A stretch of 64,000 bases of DNA, from positions 192,001-256,000 of the IMG/VR virus record IMGVR_UViG_3300010224_000001; one strand, 5' to 3'. Position 1 is the stretch's first letter; every line of letters begins with the position of its first letter. The stretch comes from a virus. The notes under the pieces are model-generated. The model was not told where the DNA came from. It searched no databases and saw only the letters and a list, made by a program, of their open reading frames with translations. Shown here piece after piece: positions 1 through 43,437 of the stretch. Both the position numbers and the translations under genes were made by a program.

Positions 1-2
1 AA

Positions 3-434
3 CTCATCAAACAAAGTATTCCAAGCGCGAAGCGTGTCAACAGGAGGATGACTCCACGCGCCACGATCACCACGGCCGCCATTGTTGGTACGACCATGCG
101 GTACAGCTTGCTCGATAGCCGATCGGATAGCAAACAGGTTGTCAGGAAGATCGCTAGCAGTCAGTGTAGTTTTAGCAGCCATCATGCCGCAGCCAATATC
201 CACACCTACCGCAGCTGGAATAATCGCACCTAACGTGGGAATCACACTACCGATGGTGGAGCCTTTGCCGACATGCACGTCCGGCATCACAGCGATGTGT
301 TTGTAGATGAACGGCATCTTAGCGATATTCGACAGCTGTACTTTGGCTTCTTCTTCGACCGGAACACCTTTAGTCCACATCTTGATCGGTTTGCTGCCTT
401 CGTTGTTCAGGACTTCGTAGTTGTCTTGAGACAT
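3..434 (-). CDS. rtcB: RNA-splicing/repair ligase RtcB, N-terminal part (runs off left edge)
   Basis: Not in ORF track; manual translation from ATG at 434: MSQDNYEVL...PIKMWTKGVPVEEEA...AVMPDVHVGKGSTIGSVIPT..AIIPAAVGVDIGCGM, with the RtcB PDxH and VGVDIGCG motifs. Confidence 0.95.
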   Translation of the reverse strand, partial: MSQDNYEVLNNEGSKPIKMWTKGVPVEEEAKVQLSNIAKMPFIYKHIAVMPDVHVGKGSTIGSVIPTLGAIIPAAVGVDIGCGMMAAKTTLTASDLPDNLFAIRSAIEQAVPHGRTNNGGRGDRGAWSHPPVDTLRAWNTLFDE

Positions 435-7701: not shown

Positions 7702-8103
7702 TTATTCCCTTTCTTTACTAGTTTGGAAACGCTCCGGATATTGTTTAGCATAGCTATTATAGATAGCCAAACATTCCGCTTCCGTCGGACGACGAGGCGC
7801 ATCCCTTTCGAACAGCAGCCACATTGCTTGGGTGCGGCCACGTCGTTTATACCACTGCACCCAGAGTGTCATTGCTTCACCAACACCTGGAATTTGACAG
7901 ACGTTAATTGTCGAATAACGTTCATCGTTTTCCAAGTTCACCAGATGTACGTCACTGATATCTTCAAGTTCGGCAATATCACGAATCTTACCAACGGTAG
8001 CGCAGTTCCAGTTATCGGCATTGAAAAGCGCATCTTCGAAAGCACACTTGGGGTCAGTGCCGTTCCAGGGTTTACCGCGCTCAATACAAGCTTTGCATGG
8101 CAT
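7702..8103 (-). CDS. hypothetical protein (Cys-rich)
   Basis: CxxC N-terminus, WYKRRG motif. Confidence 0.65.
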   Translation of the reverse strand: MPCKACIERGKPWNGTDPKCAFEDALFNADNWNCATVGKIRDIAELEDISDVHLVNLENDERYSTINVCQIPGVGEAMTLWVQWYKRRGRTQAMWLLFERDAPRRPTEAECLAIYNSYAKQYPERFQTSKERE

Positions 8104-9347
8104 TATACTTCTCCTTTAAGTTCTCTAAGTAGTTTCTTAACAGCCGAAACACGAACAGCATGGATCGCGTCCTTAAGTTCTCGAACATTCGTCCTGGCTT
8201 TCTGCTGATACTTAACCGCCACGACACCTACTGCCACGCCGCGTGCGGCTGACATAGCTGTCCGGCAGTATTCGGCTTGTGGATAAGGACGATCTTTGAA
8301 CGACACCGTTCTACTAGCTCGACCTCGAGCATCGCACATTGCGGCATCAATGACTTTCAAGAAGCGTTCAGGACGGCGATAGATATCGCAACGTTCAAAC
8401 ATCTTCACCAAAGTAGCAACGCGAATGTCCATAGCCCTGTGAATGTTAAGATGCTCGCGAGAAGTCATTACGGCAATCTCCTCGCAATCCTTAGGAATAC
8501 GCATCCGTTCGCAAATAGCCTTAATCAACGGAACACCAGCTTCTTCATGACCGTGGTGACTTGGCCACTGATCTTCAGGTGTTACTCCTTTGCCAACATC
8601 ATGCATCAACACTGCAAAACGAGTTTCGAGATCATAACCCATTTCAGCAGCATAATTGAGAGAGAGTTCAATGTGTGCTCCTGTCCAAATCTCAGGATGA
8701 TGTTGTTCAGCTTGGGGCACATGCCAGAGTCGATCTAACTCTGGAAAGAAACCAGCCATCAAACCAAAAGCCGTCATCATGGTAAACATCCGTCCTGGTT
8801 TAACTTCCATCAAACCACGAGAAAATTCTTTCCAGATACGCTCCGGGTTAGCACCAACCAATCGATTCTCTAAGAACAACCTTCTCGATAACCAGAATGT
8901 GTCAGTGTCGATTTTAAAGTCAAGATATCGTGCATAGAACCTGCACAACCGAAACGTACGAATCGGGTCTTCTCTGAAGCTTTCTTCAGACACCATTCGC
9001 AGTACTTTGTTCTGAATGTCAGCGCGGCCGTTATGCGGGTCGATGTATTCACGGGTTTCCGGATCATACGCAATCGCATTAATCGTCAGATCACGCTTAG
9101 CCAGATCCTCTTCCAGTGTTACACTGGGATCGAAGGTGGCCACGCCGCCCTGACGTTCACGACGTGCTAGCGAATACTCTTCTTTTGTGAATGGATGCAG
9201 AAAGGTCGGGAAGTCTTTACCGACTTGAATGTAGCCGAGACTAATCATTACCTCAGCAGTAGTGCCTACTACGACCCAGTCTTTATCCTTGGGTGTAATT
9301 CCCATCAGCTGATCTCTTACAGCTCCACCTACTAAATAGACTTTCAT
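8103..9347 (-). CDS. cca: multifunctional CCA tRNA nucleotidyltransferase / HD phosphatase
   Basis: MKVYLVGGAVRD..KDKDWVV, EDLAKRDLTINAIA, EDPIR, ERIWKE, HHPE, LMHDVGKG HD motif. Confidence 0.95.
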   Translation of the reverse strand: MKVYLVGGAVRDQLMGITPKDKDWVVVGTTAEVMISLGYIQVGKDFPTFLHPFTKEEYSLARRERQGGVATFDPSVTLEEDLAKRDLTINAIAYDPETREYIDPHNGRADIQNKVLRMVSEESFREDPIRTFRLCRFYARYLDFKIDTDTFWLSRRLFLENRLVGANPERIWKEFSRGLMEVKPGRMFTMMTAFGLMAGFFPELDRLWHVPQAEQHHPEIWTGAHIELSLNYAAEMGYDLETRFAVLMHDVGKGVTPEDQWPSHHGHEEAGVPLIKAICERMRIPKDCEEIAVMTSREHLNIHRAMDIRVATLVKMFERCDIYRRPERFLKVIDAAMCDARGRASRTVSFKDRPYPQAEYCRTAMSAARGVAVGVVAVKYQQKARTNVRELKDAIHAVRVSAVKKLLRELKGEV

Positions 9348-9606: not shown

Positions 9607-10434
9607 TTAAGCTTGTTTTGCAACCTTGATGTTGTGCTCCATGATCTTTTCAATCATAGCCGAACTTACTTTGACACGACGTTCATTGTCTTGCGACATC
9701 GACGGCATCGGAATAGGACGCATGTCTTCGAAGTAGAAATCAAAAGCAGTTTCGAGAACATCTTCAGCCATTTCCATCGCATCCTTGTCGTTCTCACCTT
9801 GAGTGATAGCTTCAGGGATATCGCGGAACGTCACAACGTAGCCTGTTGTGGCTGGAGCGAATTTAGCCGGATAGGTAAACTCAGCTTTCTTTTCTTCAGC
9901 GTTGACTTCTTGTTCCGGTTCTTCGAACTCGATAGTCGAGCGCGACGATTTACCAATCGCTACCACACCTTCACCACGTGGGAAGTCTTTGGCTTTACGA
10001 TCATAGATGTAATCCGCCAGATTCTCGAATTCACCACGCAGAACTTGATCAGGATGCAGATAGATGATTTCGATACCTTCATCCTTAGCGTAGTTGATTT
10101 CTTGTTCCACACCTTCCGACGAATCCCAACCATCAATCGTCAGAACAACCACGAAGTCAGCTTTCTTCAGCAAGGTAATCGAATAGCTACCCCAGAAGTT
10201 CCAATCGCCCGGCAACTTGTCAGTATAGCAACGCACCAAATGCATCAGCAGCGGCGAATACGGTTTGATGCCGACCTTGACCATTTGTTCCAGACACAGG
10301 CTGAAAGTTTGCATACGCTGCGAGATGACAGGTACGTCTTCCTTACCTTGTGTGTTCTTAGCGGAATAAGGACCGCACACATACACCGCGTTTTGGCTGT
10401 TTTCACCGATGAGTCGTTTGATGAGTTCGTTCAT
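9607..10434 (-). CDS. DUF1937/nucleoside-deoxyribosyltransferase-like domain fused to HicB-like antitoxin domain
   Basis: N-term VYVCGPYS..YSPL..GWDSSEGVEQEI; C-term YPAKF..GYVVTFRDIPEAITQGE..AMEMAEDVL..RPIPMPS. Confidence 0.7.
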   Translation of the reverse strand: MNELIKRLIGENSQNAVYVCGPYSAKNTQGKEDVPVISQRMQTFSLCLEQMVKVGIKPYSPLLMHLVRCYTDKLPGDWNFWGSYSITLLKKADFVVVLTIDGWDSSEGVEQEINYAKDEGIEIIYLHPDQVLRGEFENLADYIYDRKAKDFPRGEGVVAIGKSSRSTIEFEEPEQEVNAEEKKAEFTYPAKFAPATTGYVVTFRDIPEAITQGENDKDAMEMAEDVLETAFDFYFEDMRPIPMPSMSQDNERRVKVSSAMIEKIMEHNIKVAKQA

Positions 10435-41602: not shown

Positions 41603-41851
41603 TTAACCATGTGCTATTTTGTTCTGATAATCATTAGAGAACACATGCGGTTCACCAATCGATTTACGAGCCTGTTCAATTAGAGCATCTACGTTATCGT
41701 AATCGATGTAGTAGAAGGTTTGACCGTCTTTAACGCGATGTCGTGGCAACTTCTCTAAGTCTTTACAGAGTTTAATCAACGCGTCTTTAGCTGTAGTATC
41801 TGTAATTGGGAATTGGCCTTCCCCTGCAAAACTATCATTACTGAAACACAT
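41603..41851 (-). CDS. hypothetical protein
   Basis: Start at MCFSND after GGAG; the ORF-track extension overlaps the tRNA-like element. Confidence 0.55.
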   Translation of the reverse strand: MCFSNDSFAGEGQFPITDTTAKDALIKLCKDLEKLPRHRVKDGQTFYYIDYDNVDALIEQARKSIGEPHVFSNDYQNKIAHG

Positions 41852-41870: not shown

Positions 41871-42008
41871 TGGTCGGGCGTTCTTGGAATCGAACCAAGG
41901 ACCTTCGTCTTGTGGTGAGGTTCCCCTCTGGCCGATCGCCTAAGCGGTCGCATCCGCCGAAGCGAATGGAATATTGGACGATGCTCTACCGAACTGAGCT
42001 AAACCCCG
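41871..42008 (-). ncRNA. tRNA-scaffold RNA 0: tRNA body with 67-nt three-hairpin insert replacing the anticodon loop
   Basis: CGGGGTT-TA-GCTC..GAGC-A-TCGTC[insert 41910-41976]GACGA-AGGTC-CTTGG-TTCGATT-CCAAG-AAC(G)CCCG-A-CCA. Confidence 0.85.
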
Positions 42009-42752: not shown

Positions 42753-42917
42753 TGGTGGGACGTTCCTAGATTTGAACTAGGGACCTCGATCTAGTTTAGA
42801 TGGAACCTGATTAGGGTTCTGCCTTTAACCACTCGGCCATACCTCCTAACGGAGATAGAGGGATTCGAACCCTCGGATCTTTGGTTGATCGCGCTCTAAC
42901 CGCTGAGCTAAACTCCC
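42753..42917 (-). ncRNA. tRNA-scaffold RNA A: outer tRNA with nested class II tRNA permuted in its variable arm
   Basis: GGGAGTT..CGATC[95 nt]GATCG-AGGTC-CCTAG-TTCAAAT-CTAGG-AAC(G)TCCC-A-CCA. Confidence 0.9.
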
Positions 42918-42938: not shown

Positions 42939-43110
42939 TGGTGGAGCGATGCAAGATTCGAACTTGCGACCTCTGTCTAAGCTTTGACTAGCAGGATTGT
43001 GCTCTAACCATCTGAGCTACTAACGGACGTTGACACCCGTTAGATCGGACTTGAACCGATGACCCCAATCGTGAATAAGACAGCGTTCTACCTGACTGAA
43101 CTAATCCCCC
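42939..43110 (-). ncRNA. tRNA-scaffold RNA B: outer tRNA with nested anticodon-permuted tRNA
   Basis: GGGGGAT..CTGTC[101 nt]GACAG-AGGTC-GCAAG-TTCGAAT-CTTGC-ATC(G)CTCC-A-CCA. Confidence 0.9.
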
Positions 43111-43128
43111 ATGTACTACTTTGAAACT

Positions 43129-43288
43129 TGGTGGAGCGATCTAGGAATCGAACCTAGGACCTCTGCCTGAGTCGAATGCTCTACCAGCTGAGCTACCGAT
43201 AAGTAACGAAGTGTTACCTACCGAGCGGGACTCGAACCCGCGACCCGTCGATTAGAATGGCAGCGCTCTATCACTGAGCTAATCCCCC
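43129..43288 (-). ncRNA. tRNA-scaffold RNA C: outer tRNA with nested anticodon-permuted tRNA
   Basis: GGGGGAT..CTGCC[91 nt]GGCAG-AGGTC-CTAGG-TTCGATT-CCTAG-ATC(G)CTCC-A-CCA. Confidence 0.9.
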
Positions 43289-43307
43289 GCAAACTGCTTT
43301 GTGAAAC

Positions 43308-43437
43308 TGGTAGGGCGCTTCTGGATTTTAACCAGAGACCTCCGTCTAGTTAACCAATAACCACACCCCCGTTGGGAGGTACGGCTGGACTTGAACCAGC
43401 GATTTGACGGCGCTCTAACAGGCTGAGCTAAGCCCCT
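43308..43437 (-). ncRNA. tRNA-scaffold RNA D: outer tRNA with minimal permuted T-arm/acceptor/D-like insert
   Basis: AGGGGCT..CCGTC[59 nt]GACGG-AGGTC-TCTGG-TTAAAAT-CCAGA-AGC(G)CCCT-A-CCA. Confidence 0.85.

What the first reader, a model, noticed from the sequence alone, without database searches (positions are those of the whole stretch)
42939..43288. Elements B and C: inner halves can be rejoined into canonical anticodon loops; outer bodies carry alanine identity
In B the inner 5' half ends CAATC-CTG and the 3' half starts TTCAC-GATTG, so joining gives CT-TTC-AC (Glu) or CT-GTC-AC (Asp), both consistent with its G73. In C the 5' half ends TTCGA-CTCA and the 3' half starts TCTAA-TCGAC, giving CT-TCT-AA, CT-CCT-AA or CT-CAT-AA. 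Excision, circularisation and acceptor-loop opening would yield a normal tRNA, as for permuted tRNA genes; alternatively these are only traces of origin. Outer B and C have G1-C72, G2-C71, G3-U70 and A73, the anticodon-independent AlaRS determinants.
Basis: partly seen in the sequence, partly recalled or inferred. Interest (0 to 1): 0.82.

Follow-up and report, generated by a model that had tools for sequence, protein, structure and literature searches.

The report
Two-headed tRNA look-alikes of a giant phage
Two small RNA genes of a giant soil-type phage are each a transfer RNA whose decoding loop is replaced by a second, sealed, back-to-front transfer RNA; they almost certainly cannot read codons, and act as tRNA look-alikes that may carry alanine.

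Summary
B (43110..42939, 172 nt) and C (43288..43129, 160 nt) are two of five paralogous "tRNA scaffold" RNAs in the tRNA cluster of a 322.6-kb phage related to Ralstonia phage RP12.

Each has a full tRNA body: an acceptor stem with a bulged G, D arm, anticodon stem, T arm and encoded ACCA. The anticodon loop is replaced by a sealed, circularly permuted tRNA-like module with the topology of the YrlA Y RNA. Covariation supports the outer fold (105 of 105 cells paired, 12 of 21 pairs with double changes). Xanthomonas phage RTH11 has the same nested design.

The "rejoined anticodon loop" idea is weak:
- All 13 possible joining registers give a tRNA call.
- The RTH11 counterpart cannot give a U33 loop.
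- No splicing endonuclease or bulge-helix-bulge motif is present.
- The inner acceptor helices run on for 10 and 12 bp.

The loop-like linkers are best read as relics of origin.

The alanine marks (G1-C72, G2-C71, G3.U70, G4-C69, A73) are real in B and C. They differ from the family consensus by a single C70-to-U change, and charging is untested.

Earlier notes of this scan report similar RNAs in other giant phages. My literature searches found no published description.

The parts
42939..43110 (-). Element B, whole RNA (172 nt): outer tRNA body with a sealed permuted tRNA-like module in place of the anticodon loop
   Evidence: Reading. The MFE fold equals the nested double cloverleaf. R1 scores 147 bits.
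43104..43110 (-). B outer acceptor 5' strand GGGGGAU (G3 at 43108)
43085..43101 (-). B outer D arm (GUUC / GAAC, loop with G18 G19)
43079..43083 (-). B outer anticodon-stem 5' strand CUGUC, pairs with 42973-42977
   Evidence: 5 of 5 paired
43071..43078 (-). B 5' linker UUAUUCAC, an anticodon-loop-like relic
42995..43070 (-). B inner module. In order: anticodon-stem 3' strand GAUUG, variable GGGUC, T arm AUCGG-UUCAAGU-CCGAU, acceptor helix 7+3 bp closed by UCAA, UA, D arm, anticodon-stem 5' strand CAAUC
   Evidence: every helix fully paired. Rfam YrlA 34.0 bits, below its gathering score of 69.
42978..42994 (-). B 3' linker CUGCUAGUCAAAGCUUA (17 nt)
42939..42977 (-). B outer 3' half: GACAG, AGGUC, T arm GCAAG-UUCGAAU-CUUGC, acceptor 3' strand AUC[G]CUCC (bulged G at 42947, U70 at 42945), A73 at 42942, CCA at 42939-42941
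43129..43288 (-). Element C, whole RNA (160 nt), same design as B
   Evidence: Reading. Nested model -53.9 against MFE -56.2 kcal/mol. R1 scores 124.5 bits.
43252..43258 (-). C 5' linker AUUCUAA, a 7-nt loop-like relic with U33 and A37
43172..43251 (-). C inner module. In order: UCGAC, GGGUC, T arm GCGGG-UUCGAGU-CCCGC, acceptor helix 7+5 bp (three G.U pairs) closed by ACUUC, UA, D arm GCUC-AGCUGGUA-GAGC, UUCGA
   Evidence: Rfam YrlA 32.6 bits over model positions 27-81.
43168..43171 (-). C 3' linker CUCA
43129..43167 (-). C outer 3' half: GGCAG, AGGUC, T arm CUAGG-UUCGAUU-CCUAG, AUC[G]CUCC (bulged G at 43137, U70 at 43135), A73 at 43132, CCA at 43129-43131
43308..43437 (-). Paralogue S5: same scaffold, cargo is a T arm plus a hairpin; G3-C70
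42753..42917 (-).
   Evidence: ARAGORN and Rfam mis-call parts of it as tRNAs.
41871..42008 (-). Paralogue S1: same scaffold with non-tRNA hairpin cargo, lying between two ORFs
8103..9347 (-). Context: CCA-adding enzyme (PolyA_pol head plus HD domains)
   Evidence: Pfam 4.8e-20; phrog_2244 1.2e-111
1..338 (-). Context: N-terminal part of the RtcB RNA ligase gene (whole gene at G000:C1:191211-192338)
   Evidence: PF01139, 432 bits

Best explanation
B and C are non-decoding, two-headed tRNA mimics.

Architecture:
- Each is transcribed with the phage tRNA cluster.
- The outer part is a complete tRNA body with a genomically encoded ACCA end. It should therefore be cut out by RNase P and the 3'-end machinery and be as stable as a tRNA (inferred).
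- Where the anticodon loop should be, the 5-bp anticodon stem runs through an internal loop into the anticodon stem of a second tRNA-like body. That body is written in permuted order: 3' half, then a hairpin-sealed acceptor helix, then 5' half. This is the topology of the tRNA-like module of bacterial and phage YrlA Y RNAs.
- Both bodies keep the nucleotides that build the tRNA elbow, so the RNA should be two L-shapes joined head to head (inferred).

Function:
- With no anticodon loop, it cannot decode.
- Its most likely job is to present tRNA shapes to proteins that recognise tRNA, such as host tRNA-targeting defence nucleases or tRNA processing and repair factors. It would act as a decoy or adaptor (inferred, weakest step).
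- The outer ends of B and C carry the acceptor-stem determinants of bacterial alanine identity. They are probably charged by the host AlaRS, which would protect the 3' end or make the mimic look like a charged tRNA (inferred, untested).
- The loop-like linker sequences are relics of the tRNA genes from which the inner modules arose, not splice sites.
For: Outer fold:
- In the alignment of the five paralogues, 105 of 105 cells form standard pairs and 12 of 21 pairs have changes on both sides.
- 0 of 500 shuffles reach this, and slid controls give 30-50% paired.

Inner fold:
- In B, C, S2 and the RTH11 element, all inner helices pair with different sequences. For example, the inner anticodon stems are GAUUG/CAAUC, UCGAC/UUCGA and UCUUU/AAAGA, and the acceptor helices are three unrelated sequences.
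- B's MFE fold is the nested model. C's nested model lies 2.3 kcal/mol above its MFE.

Resemblance to YrlA:
- The best non-tRNA Rfam matches are YrlA, at 34.0 and 32.6 bits. They align the T arm, sealed stem and D arm.

Family and relatives:
- Model R1 finds the five paralogues at 124-147 bits.
- It also finds long cargo-bearing homologues in Xanthomonas phage RTH11 (two, one of them nested like B and C) and in Ralstonia phage RP12 (one).

No anticodon loop:
- ARAGORN calls neither B nor C a tRNA.

Alanine marks:
- G2-C71, G3.U70, G4-C69 and A73 are present. These are the bacterial acceptor determinants in Table 1 of PMC9976931.
- B and C have identical acceptor strands (15 of 15 nt), although 3 of 5 outer T-stem pairs differ on both sides.
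- The phage encodes no AlaRS.

Context:
- The genes lie in a tRNA cluster, all on one strand, with 18-21 nt spacers.
- The phage also encodes a CCA-adding enzyme and RtcB.
Against: - No expression data: no RNA run was available.
- No Ro60/TROVE protein is encoded, so the known partner of YrlA-type modules is missing. No binding partner is identified.
- The YrlA scores are far below the family threshold of 69 bits.
- Relatives are few. Pattern scans of the viral and metagenome collections found no further close homologues.
- The outer D loop of C (AGUGAUA) lacks the G18 G19 pair, so its outer elbow may be weaker.
- G3.U70 is absent from three of five paralogues and from the RTH11 and RP12 elements. 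Alanylation therefore cannot be essential to the family.
- The bulged G one pair below G4-C69 could disturb AlaRS. G20, a minor determinant, is U in B.
- The fold z-scores of single sequences are unremarkable (-0.75 and -1.64).
Confidence: 0.6

Rival explanations
1. One reading: cryptic permuted tRNA genes. The inner halves are cut out at the linkers, circularised by the phage RtcB ligase, opened at the sealed acceptor loop by RNase P and finished by the CCA-adding enzyme. The products would be working tRNAs: Glu or Asp from B, Arg or Met from C.
For: - RtcB is encoded (432 bits), as is a CCA-adding enzyme.
- M. smegmatis YrlA, a sealed tRNA-like module with a 7-bp acceptor stem, is opened by RNase P and gains CCA in vivo (PMC4201824, section 8).
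- In both B and C the 3' linker begins CU and the 5' linker ends A-N. 6 of 8 and 4 of 5 registers are canonical, against 4% and 1.9% of random linkers reaching these counts.
- The loop rebuilt for C, CUUCUAA, equals the loop of the phage's own tRNA-Arg(UCU).
Against: - No tRNA-intron endonuclease was found, and I read no bulge-helix-bulge motif in the linkers.
- The cut sites are undefined: all 13 registers give a tRNA call, with 4 and 2 different amino acids.
- The RTH11 nested homologue has 1-nt and 6-nt linkers and no U33.
- The inner acceptor helices are continuous for 10 and 12 bp. C's has U1.G72 and three G.U pairs.
- A normal tRNA-Arg(UCU) already exists.
- RtcB and CCA enzymes are common tRNA-repair genes of jumbo phages (PMC7824862, section 3.4.9, passages read).
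- The model leaves the conserved outer body without a role.
Confidence: 0.05
2. Y-RNA-like adaptors. The inner YrlA-type module recruits the same, still unknown, partner as in bacterial YrlA. The outer tRNA body replaces the Ro60-binding stem as the handle for a second protein, so the RNA tethers two tRNA-binding factors, for example a repair enzyme and a substrate-recognition factor.
For: - The topology and the best non-tRNA Rfam hit are YrlA.
- The inner T stem GCGGG/CCCGC and D arm of C and of RTH11-e2 match the YrlA consensus printed.
- In Salmonella, YrlA lies in one operon with RtcB (background of PMC7790460, abstract seen; operon order recalled). This phage also has RtcB.
- Sealed modules of this kind are common in phage contigs: 22 of 122 pattern matches have a 7/7 sealed acceptor helix.
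Against: - No TROVE/Ro60 gene in the 322.6-kb genome.
- The scores are below half of the YrlA gathering score.
- By reading, the YrlA motif GNCGAA(N)G is absent from B and C.
- RtcB lies about 43 kb away.
- GCGGG/CCCGC and GCUC/GAGC stems are also common in ordinary tRNAs.
Confidence: 0.15
3. Alanyl carriers. B and C exist to be alanylated, and they deliver or sequester alanine, AlaRS or EF-Tu outside normal decoding. They would resemble tmRNA's alanine-charged tRNA-like domain or the non-proteinogenic tRNAs used in cell-wall synthesis.
For: - The full acceptor-stem alanine set is present in both.
- Acceptor strands are identical despite diverged T stems.
- The phage has no ordinary tRNA-Ala.
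- An unrelated IMG/VR contig has a cargo-bearing tRNA body with G1-C72, G2-C71, G3.U70 and A73 (L155 3065-3219).
Against: - Only 2 of 5 paralogues and 0 of 3 elements in RTH11 and RP12 carry G3.U70, and the two are one evolutionary event.
- No FemAB-type or aminoacyl-lipid synthase gene was found.
- No tmRNA features: ARAGORN finds none, and permuted tmRNA scores 15 bits against a threshold of 47.
- In a non-decoding RNA, G3.U70 is not selected against and can arise by a single transition.
Confidence: 0.1
4. Decaying tandem tRNA gene pairs with no function of their own.
For: - Standard tools see pieces of them as weak tRNAs or pseudo-tRNAs.
- The inner acceptor stem of C is rich in G.U pairs.
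Against: - Every helix of the nested fold pairs, with many compensatory changes among the five paralogues.
- The outer 5' acceptor strand cannot pair with the adjacent inner 3' strand (2 of 7 in B, by reading), so these are not two decayed cloverleaves.
- The same nested design is kept in RTH11, whose flanking protein is only 31.7% identical.
Confidence: 0.04

Closest known systems
YrlA, the tRNA-like Y RNA of bacteria and mycobacteriophages (Rfam RF02553; Chen et al. 2014, PMC4201824: abstract, passages and section 8 read)
   Same: - The inner module has the same order: anticodon-like stem, variable region, T arm, acceptor-like helix sealed by a loop, D arm.
- It has the same elbow-forming nucleotides.
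- YrlA is the best non-tRNA Rfam match.
   Different: - In YrlA the module sits on a Ro60-binding stem and is encoded next to Ro60. Here it sits on a complete tRNA body with CCA, and the genome has no TROVE protein.
- Scores are 34.0 and 32.6 bits against a gathering score of 69.
Circularly permuted tRNA genes of Cyanidioschyzon merolae and some other algae and archaea (recalled; listed only in search results)
   Same: The 3' half is written before the 5' half, with the acceptor ends joined by a short linker.
   Different: - Those genes are free-standing. They are matured through a bulge-helix-bulge motif, the splicing endonuclease and RtcB, and give decoding tRNAs.
- Here there is no such motif and no endonuclease. 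The module is embedded in another tRNA, and the relative in RTH11 cannot give a canonical loop.
tmRNA tRNA-like domain
   Same: A non-decoding RNA with an acceptor stem carrying G3.U70 and a T arm, in which the 'anticodon stem' leads into a large foreign domain. It is charged with alanine (recalled; PMC4201824 discussion passage on tmRNA aminoacylation).
   Different: No tag reading frame or pseudoknots are detected. B and C keep a full D arm and a 5-bp anticodon stem.
Phage T4 stable RNAs species 1 and 2 (rnaC, rnaD), annotated in NC_000866
   Same: - They are small stable RNAs of unknown function encoded inside a phage tRNA cluster.
- rnaC has a T arm and a closing stem.
   Different: - No D arm, no nested tRNA-like module and no encoded CCA.
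- Model R1 does not match them at E up to 1.
Engineered 'tRNA scaffold' for recombinant RNA (Ponchon and Dardel method; recalled, and seen only as titles and abstracts of PMC3753655 and PMC3401473)
   Same: Cargo RNA is inserted in place of the anticodon loop of a tRNA, so that the chimera is processed and stabilised like a tRNA.
   Different: That is a laboratory design. Here the same design occurs naturally, five times, in a phage genome.

Membership tests
Decoding tRNA | 7-nt anticodon loop with U33 closing a 5-bp anticodon stem | tested here: not met
   The outer anticodon stems of B and C enclose 101 and 91 nt. ARAGORN does not call B or C. Rfam tRNA matches are only partial, at 23-26.7 bits against a threshold of 29.
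Decoding tRNA | Acceptor stem, D arm, T arm and elbow nucleotides (U8, A14, R15-Y48, G18 G19, G53-C61, U54-A58, C56) | tested here: met
   Present by reading in outer B, inner B and inner C. Outer C lacks G18 G19 in its 7-nt D loop.
Permuted tRNA gene (algal/archaeal type) | 3' half upstream of the 5' half, acceptor ends linked | tested here: met
   Inner modules of B and C.
Permuted tRNA gene (algal/archaeal type) | Bulge-helix-bulge motif at the junction, and a splicing endonuclease | tested here: not met
   Linkers are 8/17 nt and 7/4 nt, with no 3-nt bulge, 4-bp helix, 3-nt bulge arrangement (reading). PF01974 is absent from the genome, while it rings in 4 archaeal controls.
Permuted tRNA gene (algal/archaeal type) | Circular intermediate and a mature decoding tRNA | not testable with these tools
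   No RNA run was available.
YrlA (RF02553) | Score at or above the Rfam gathering threshold (69 bits) | tested here: not met
   34.0 bits (B) and 32.6 bits (C).
YrlA (RF02553) | tRNA-like module: T arm, loop-sealed acceptor-like stem, D arm | tested here: met
   Alignments; helices.
YrlA (RF02553) | Ro60-binding stem, and a Ro60/TROVE gene in the genome | tested here: not met
   PF05731 is absent from the complete 322,570-bp genome, and 2 of the 14 control genomes matched the family. The outer part is a tRNA body, not a Y-RNA stem.
Bacterial tRNA-Ala identity set (Table 1 of PMC9976931) | A73, G2-C71, G3.U70, G4-C69 | tested here: met
   Both B and C, given the bulged G between 68 and 69.
Bacterial tRNA-Ala identity set (Table 1 of PMC9976931) | G20 in the D loop (minor determinant) | tested here: not met
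   By reading, B has U at position 20. C's 7-nt D loop cannot be numbered with confidence.
Bacterial tRNA-Ala identity set (Table 1 of PMC9976931) | Actual alanylation by AlaRS | not testable with these tools
   Needs an acid-urea northern blot or an in vitro charging assay.
tmRNA | Tag reading frame and pseudoknots | tested here: not met
   ARAGORN finds no tmRNA. Rfam permuted tmRNA scores 15 bits against 47.

The most novel reading that the evidence does not exclude
B and C are a natural class of bivalent, alanine-charged tRNA decoys. A giant phage mounts sealed YrlA-type tRNA bodies on self-processing tRNA scaffolds. It uses them, without any Ro60 protein, to trap or redirect host factors that attack or inspect tRNAs, such as anticodon nucleases, aminoacyl-tRNA-modifying toxins or repair sensors. 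The anticodon-loop-like linkers would serve as bait that the phage RtcB can reseal.
Probability: 0.15. Interest if true: 0.85.

Novelty: new variant of a known kind. Interest (0 to 1): 0.6.

Why it matters
Phage tRNA clusters are usually read as codon-supply or as spare parts against tRNA-cleaving defences. These RNAs keep every feature needed to be made, folded and possibly charged like a tRNA, yet have given up decoding. This points to a separate, unexplored use of the tRNA shape by giant phages.

They also show that the YrlA-type sealed tRNA module can work without Ro60, which bears on the open question of what that module binds.

Practically, gene finders split these RNAs into false tRNAs. 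Here a false 'tRNA-Ile(AAU)' and a 68-nt 'tRNA' were called, so phage tRNA counts and codon-usage arguments are distorted.

The design is the natural counterpart of the laboratory tRNA scaffold for RNA expression.

Tried and rejected
Searches for close relatives
- blastn of the array against 50,697 phage records: no match.
- The flanking 224-aa protein in IMG/VR: no relative.
- The strict 3'-end pattern in viral contigs: 0 hits.
- A relaxed pattern: 69 loci. The long R1 hits among them were tandem tRNAs or unrelated tRNA-like RNAs.
- The metagenome scan: 19 loci, none a relative.
- Relatives of the CCA enzyme (two IMG/VR records): only ordinary tRNAs.
- tblastn with the CCA enzyme: 379 records, not informative on kinship.
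- blastn with the RTH11 elements: only generic tRNA similarity.

Origin of the bodies
- Best identities to the 21 tRNAs of this phage and of RTH11 are 0.68-0.74, with no clear parent.
- Short blastn of C's outer halves against E. coli genomes gave nothing usable.
- A three-sequence MAFFT alignment (A3) misaligned the inner stems, so I counted those pairs by script. Three anchors in that script hit the wrong copy: B outer acceptor, C inner anticodon strand and S2 variable stem. I corrected these by position or by reading. My first index for C's inner stem was wrong and was redone.

Sequencing runs
- No RNA holder was listed.
- The contigs laid were mostly conserved tRNA pieces of other organisms. 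A few low-depth pieces were identical or nearly identical to the window. There were no joints across the linkers, but contigs cannot show this.

Other negative checks
- Promoter and terminator scan: not above shuffles.
- Genes sought and not found: TROVE (11), Rnl2-type ligase (49), tRNA-intron endonuclease (50), AlaRS (71), FemAB (82), aminoacyl-lipid synthase C domain (83).
- The T4 Rnl1 family also gave nothing, but none of the control genomes matched it either, so that answer is void.
- No structure or complex prediction was run.

Literature
- Searches found no description of a tRNA nested in a tRNA.
- Supplements were closed. The YrlA supplementary tables of phage hits in PMC4201824 could not be seen and might list related phage RNAs.
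Full report
**What is there**

The window is bases 192001-256000 of a 322,570-bp virus record with direct terminal repeats. The protein next to the array has its best named relatives in Ralstonia phages RP12 and RP31 (44.3% identity) and in Xanthomonas phage RTH11 (31.7%). All nine ARAGORN tRNA calls of the whole genome lie in this window, on the minus strand.

Read on the minus strand, the finding's interval holds two RNAs:
- C: 43288..43129, 160 nt.
- B: 43110..42939, 172 nt.

Each begins GGGGGAU-UA, then a D arm and a 5-bp anticodon stem. Each ends with the other strand of that stem, AGGUC, a T arm, AUCGCUCC and ACCA. Between the two strands of the anticodon stem lie 101 nt (B) or 91 nt (C), in this order:
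1. a linker,
2. the 3' strand of a second anticodon stem,
3. a 5-nt variable region,
4. a T arm,
5. an acceptor-type helix closed by a hairpin loop,
6. UA and a D arm,
7. the 5' strand of the second anticodon stem,
8. a second linker.

**Is the fold real?**

B and C are two of five paralogues that share the 3' signature AGGTC-N4-GTTMRAWTC-N4-ANCGYYCN-ACCA. That pattern gave 5 matches in the window, against 0 in 100 shuffles. The members are:
- S1: 42008..41871
- S2: 42917..42753
- B
- C
- S5: 43437..43308

For the outer cloverleaf, aligned over the five:
- All 105 cells form standard pairs, and 12 of 21 pairs change on both sides.
- No shuffle of 500 reaches this.
- Sliding the partners drops pairing to 30-50%.

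All five need one bulged G between positions 68 and 69.

The inner helices pair fully in B. In C they pair at 4 of 5, 5 of 5, 12 of 12 and 4 of 4. The sequences differ from B's. RNAfold's minimum-energy structure of B is the nested double cloverleaf. For C the nested model is 2.3 kcal/mol above the MFE.

A covariance model of the five (R1) finds long, cargo-bearing relatives:
- RTH11 75699-75838.
- RTH11 75849-75998. This one has the same nested, permuted inner tRNA-like body, with an inner D arm.
- RP12 131865-131972.

None of these is annotated in the GenBank records.

**The 'rejoined anticodon loop' claim**

The quoted letters are right. I let a script join the inner halves in every register that gives a 7-nt loop.
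- ARAGORN called a tRNA in 8 of 8 registers for B (Glu three times, Asp, Gly, Ser three times) and in 5 of 5 for C (Arg four times, Met). The call comes from the body, not from the choice of junction.
- 6 of 8 and 4 of 5 registers have Y32-U33-R37. Random linkers of equal length reach those counts in 4% and 1.9% of draws.
- C's 5' linker alone, AUUCUAA, is a complete loop. The rebuilt CUUCUAA equals the loop of the phage's normal tRNA-Arg(UCU).

This is good evidence that the inner modules descend from real tRNA genes opened at the anticodon loop.

Several things count against these being maturation sites:
- The RTH11 homologue has linkers C and CAACUA, which give CAACUAC without U33.
- There is no tRNA splicing endonuclease, and I read no bulge-helix-bulge motif.
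- The inner acceptor helices continue beyond 7 bp: three more pairs in B and five in C. C has U1.G72 and three G.U pairs.

Some things count for them:
- The phage has RtcB and a CCA-adding enzyme.
- A sealed YrlA module with a 7-bp stem is opened by RNase P and receives CCA in M. smegmatis (PMC4201824, section 8).

However, RtcB and CCA enzymes are ordinary repair genes of jumbo phages (PMC7824862, passages). I put the maturation model at about 5%.

**The alanine claim**

With the bulged G, B and C have G1-C72, G2-C71, G3.U70, G4-C69 and A73, plus an encoded CCA. Table 1 of PMC9976931 lists A73, G2-C71, G3.U70, G4-C69 and G20 for bacteria, so four of five are met. G20 is not met in B.

The same review states that putting G3.U70 into other tRNAs confers alanine acceptance. 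That AlaRS charges acceptor minihelices is my recollection.

B and C have identical acceptor strands, although three of their five outer T-stem pairs differ on both sides. This suggests constraint or gene conversion.

Against over-reading:
- The other three scaffolds have G3-C70, and so do RTH11-e2 and the RP12 element; RTH11-e1 has C3-G70.
- The alanine set therefore differs from the family consensus by one transition.
- A non-decoding RNA is not under selection against G3.U70.
- The phage has no AlaRS, no FemAB-type transferase and no aminoacyl-lipid synthase.

I judge alanylation of B and C plausible, about even odds, but unproven.

**What it most likely is**

The nearest described thing is the tRNA-like module of YrlA. 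The best non-tRNA Rfam matches to B and C are YrlA at 34.0 and 32.6 bits, aligned over the T arm, sealed stem and D arm. These are under half of the threshold. The genome has no Ro60/TROVE protein, and the outer part is a tRNA, not a Ro-binding stem.

I therefore file B and C as a new variant: a YrlA-type sealed tRNA body mounted on a self-processing tRNA scaffold. Mechanistically:
- Shown: the two folds, their conservation, and the absence of an anticodon loop.
- Inferred: tRNA-like processing and stability, the double-L shape, charging, and the decoy or adaptor role.

T4's rnaC and rnaD are the classic unexplained stable RNAs of a phage tRNA cluster. They do not share the design.

**Prior knowledge**

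Six literature searches and the papers read gave no description of a tRNA nested in a tRNA.

Earlier AI notes of this scan describe the same five RNAs in this genome. They also describe similar 'tRNA chassis' RNAs, some alanine-marked, in other giant phages. I used them as leads only.

In my own scans, an unrelated IMG/VR contig (L155 3065-3219) holds a cargo-bearing tRNA body with G3.U70 and A73. Also, 22 of 122 matches to a T-arm...D-arm pattern have perfectly sealed acceptor helices. Sealed tRNA modules are therefore common in phage DNA.

Noticed in passing
window 43289-43307 and 43111-43128 (minus strand); L026 about 2190 and 2499-2510; L004 about 3534: The spacer that follows the encoded CCA repeats a motif close to AGTTTCAAAG in this phage, in RTH11 and in RP12. 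It may be a 3'-processing signal.
   Followed up: no
window 42757-42846 and 42850-42917: ARAGORN's 'tRNA-Ile(AAU)' and Rfam's 68-nt tRNA are artefacts. Together they are one 165-nt scaffold RNA (S2, 42917..42753), and each call mixes outer and inner halves.
   Followed up: yes
window 41871-42008: Scaffold S1 lies 8 nt after the stop of the 224-aa ORF and about 20 nt before a GGAG-preceded ATG near 41851. The listed ORF start at 41953 would overlap the RNA and is probably wrong. Processing of S1 would cut the mRNA between the two genes.
   Followed up: partly
L026 (Xanthomonas phage RTH11, 73500-77500): The GenBank record annotates none of the 13 tRNAs that ARAGORN finds here, nor the two scaffold RNAs.
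   Followed up: partly
L004 5047-5965 and 3750-4050 (Ralstonia phage RP12): These are long unannotated, G+C-rich, apparently structured non-coding stretches beside the tRNA genes. L004 3426-3533 is a 108-nt tRNA-like RNA with an enlarged anticodon region.
   Followed up: no
L155 3065-3219 (IMG/VR contig): A 155-nt tRNA body with about 100 nt of cargo in place of the anticodon loop. Its acceptor stem has G1-C72, G2-C71, G3.U70 and A73.
   Followed up: no
loci L127-L246 (viral contigs pattern scan): Of 122 T-arm...D-arm matches, 22 have a 7/7 and 27 a 6/7 sealed acceptor helix. Many are preceded by ACAGCAA.
   Followed up: partly
window 43147, 43149, 43150: One low-depth public contig (run X1, record 5, covering 43081-43335) differs from the window at three places, all in the outer T loop of C. 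It also has one inserted base at 43303.
   Followed up: no
L116 2430-3216 (metagenome contig): Three ~130-nt elements each end in a T arm and ...GCTCCACCA or ...GCCCTACCA. Two of them share an internal GGTGGCTGCAACTT block. They are unrelated tRNA-like RNAs of unknown kind.
   Followed up: no
window 9607-10434 (minus strand): A 275-aa protein with a DUF1937/DUF4406-type domain and a weak HicB-like antitoxin match, next to the CCA-adding enzyme gene.
   Followed up: no
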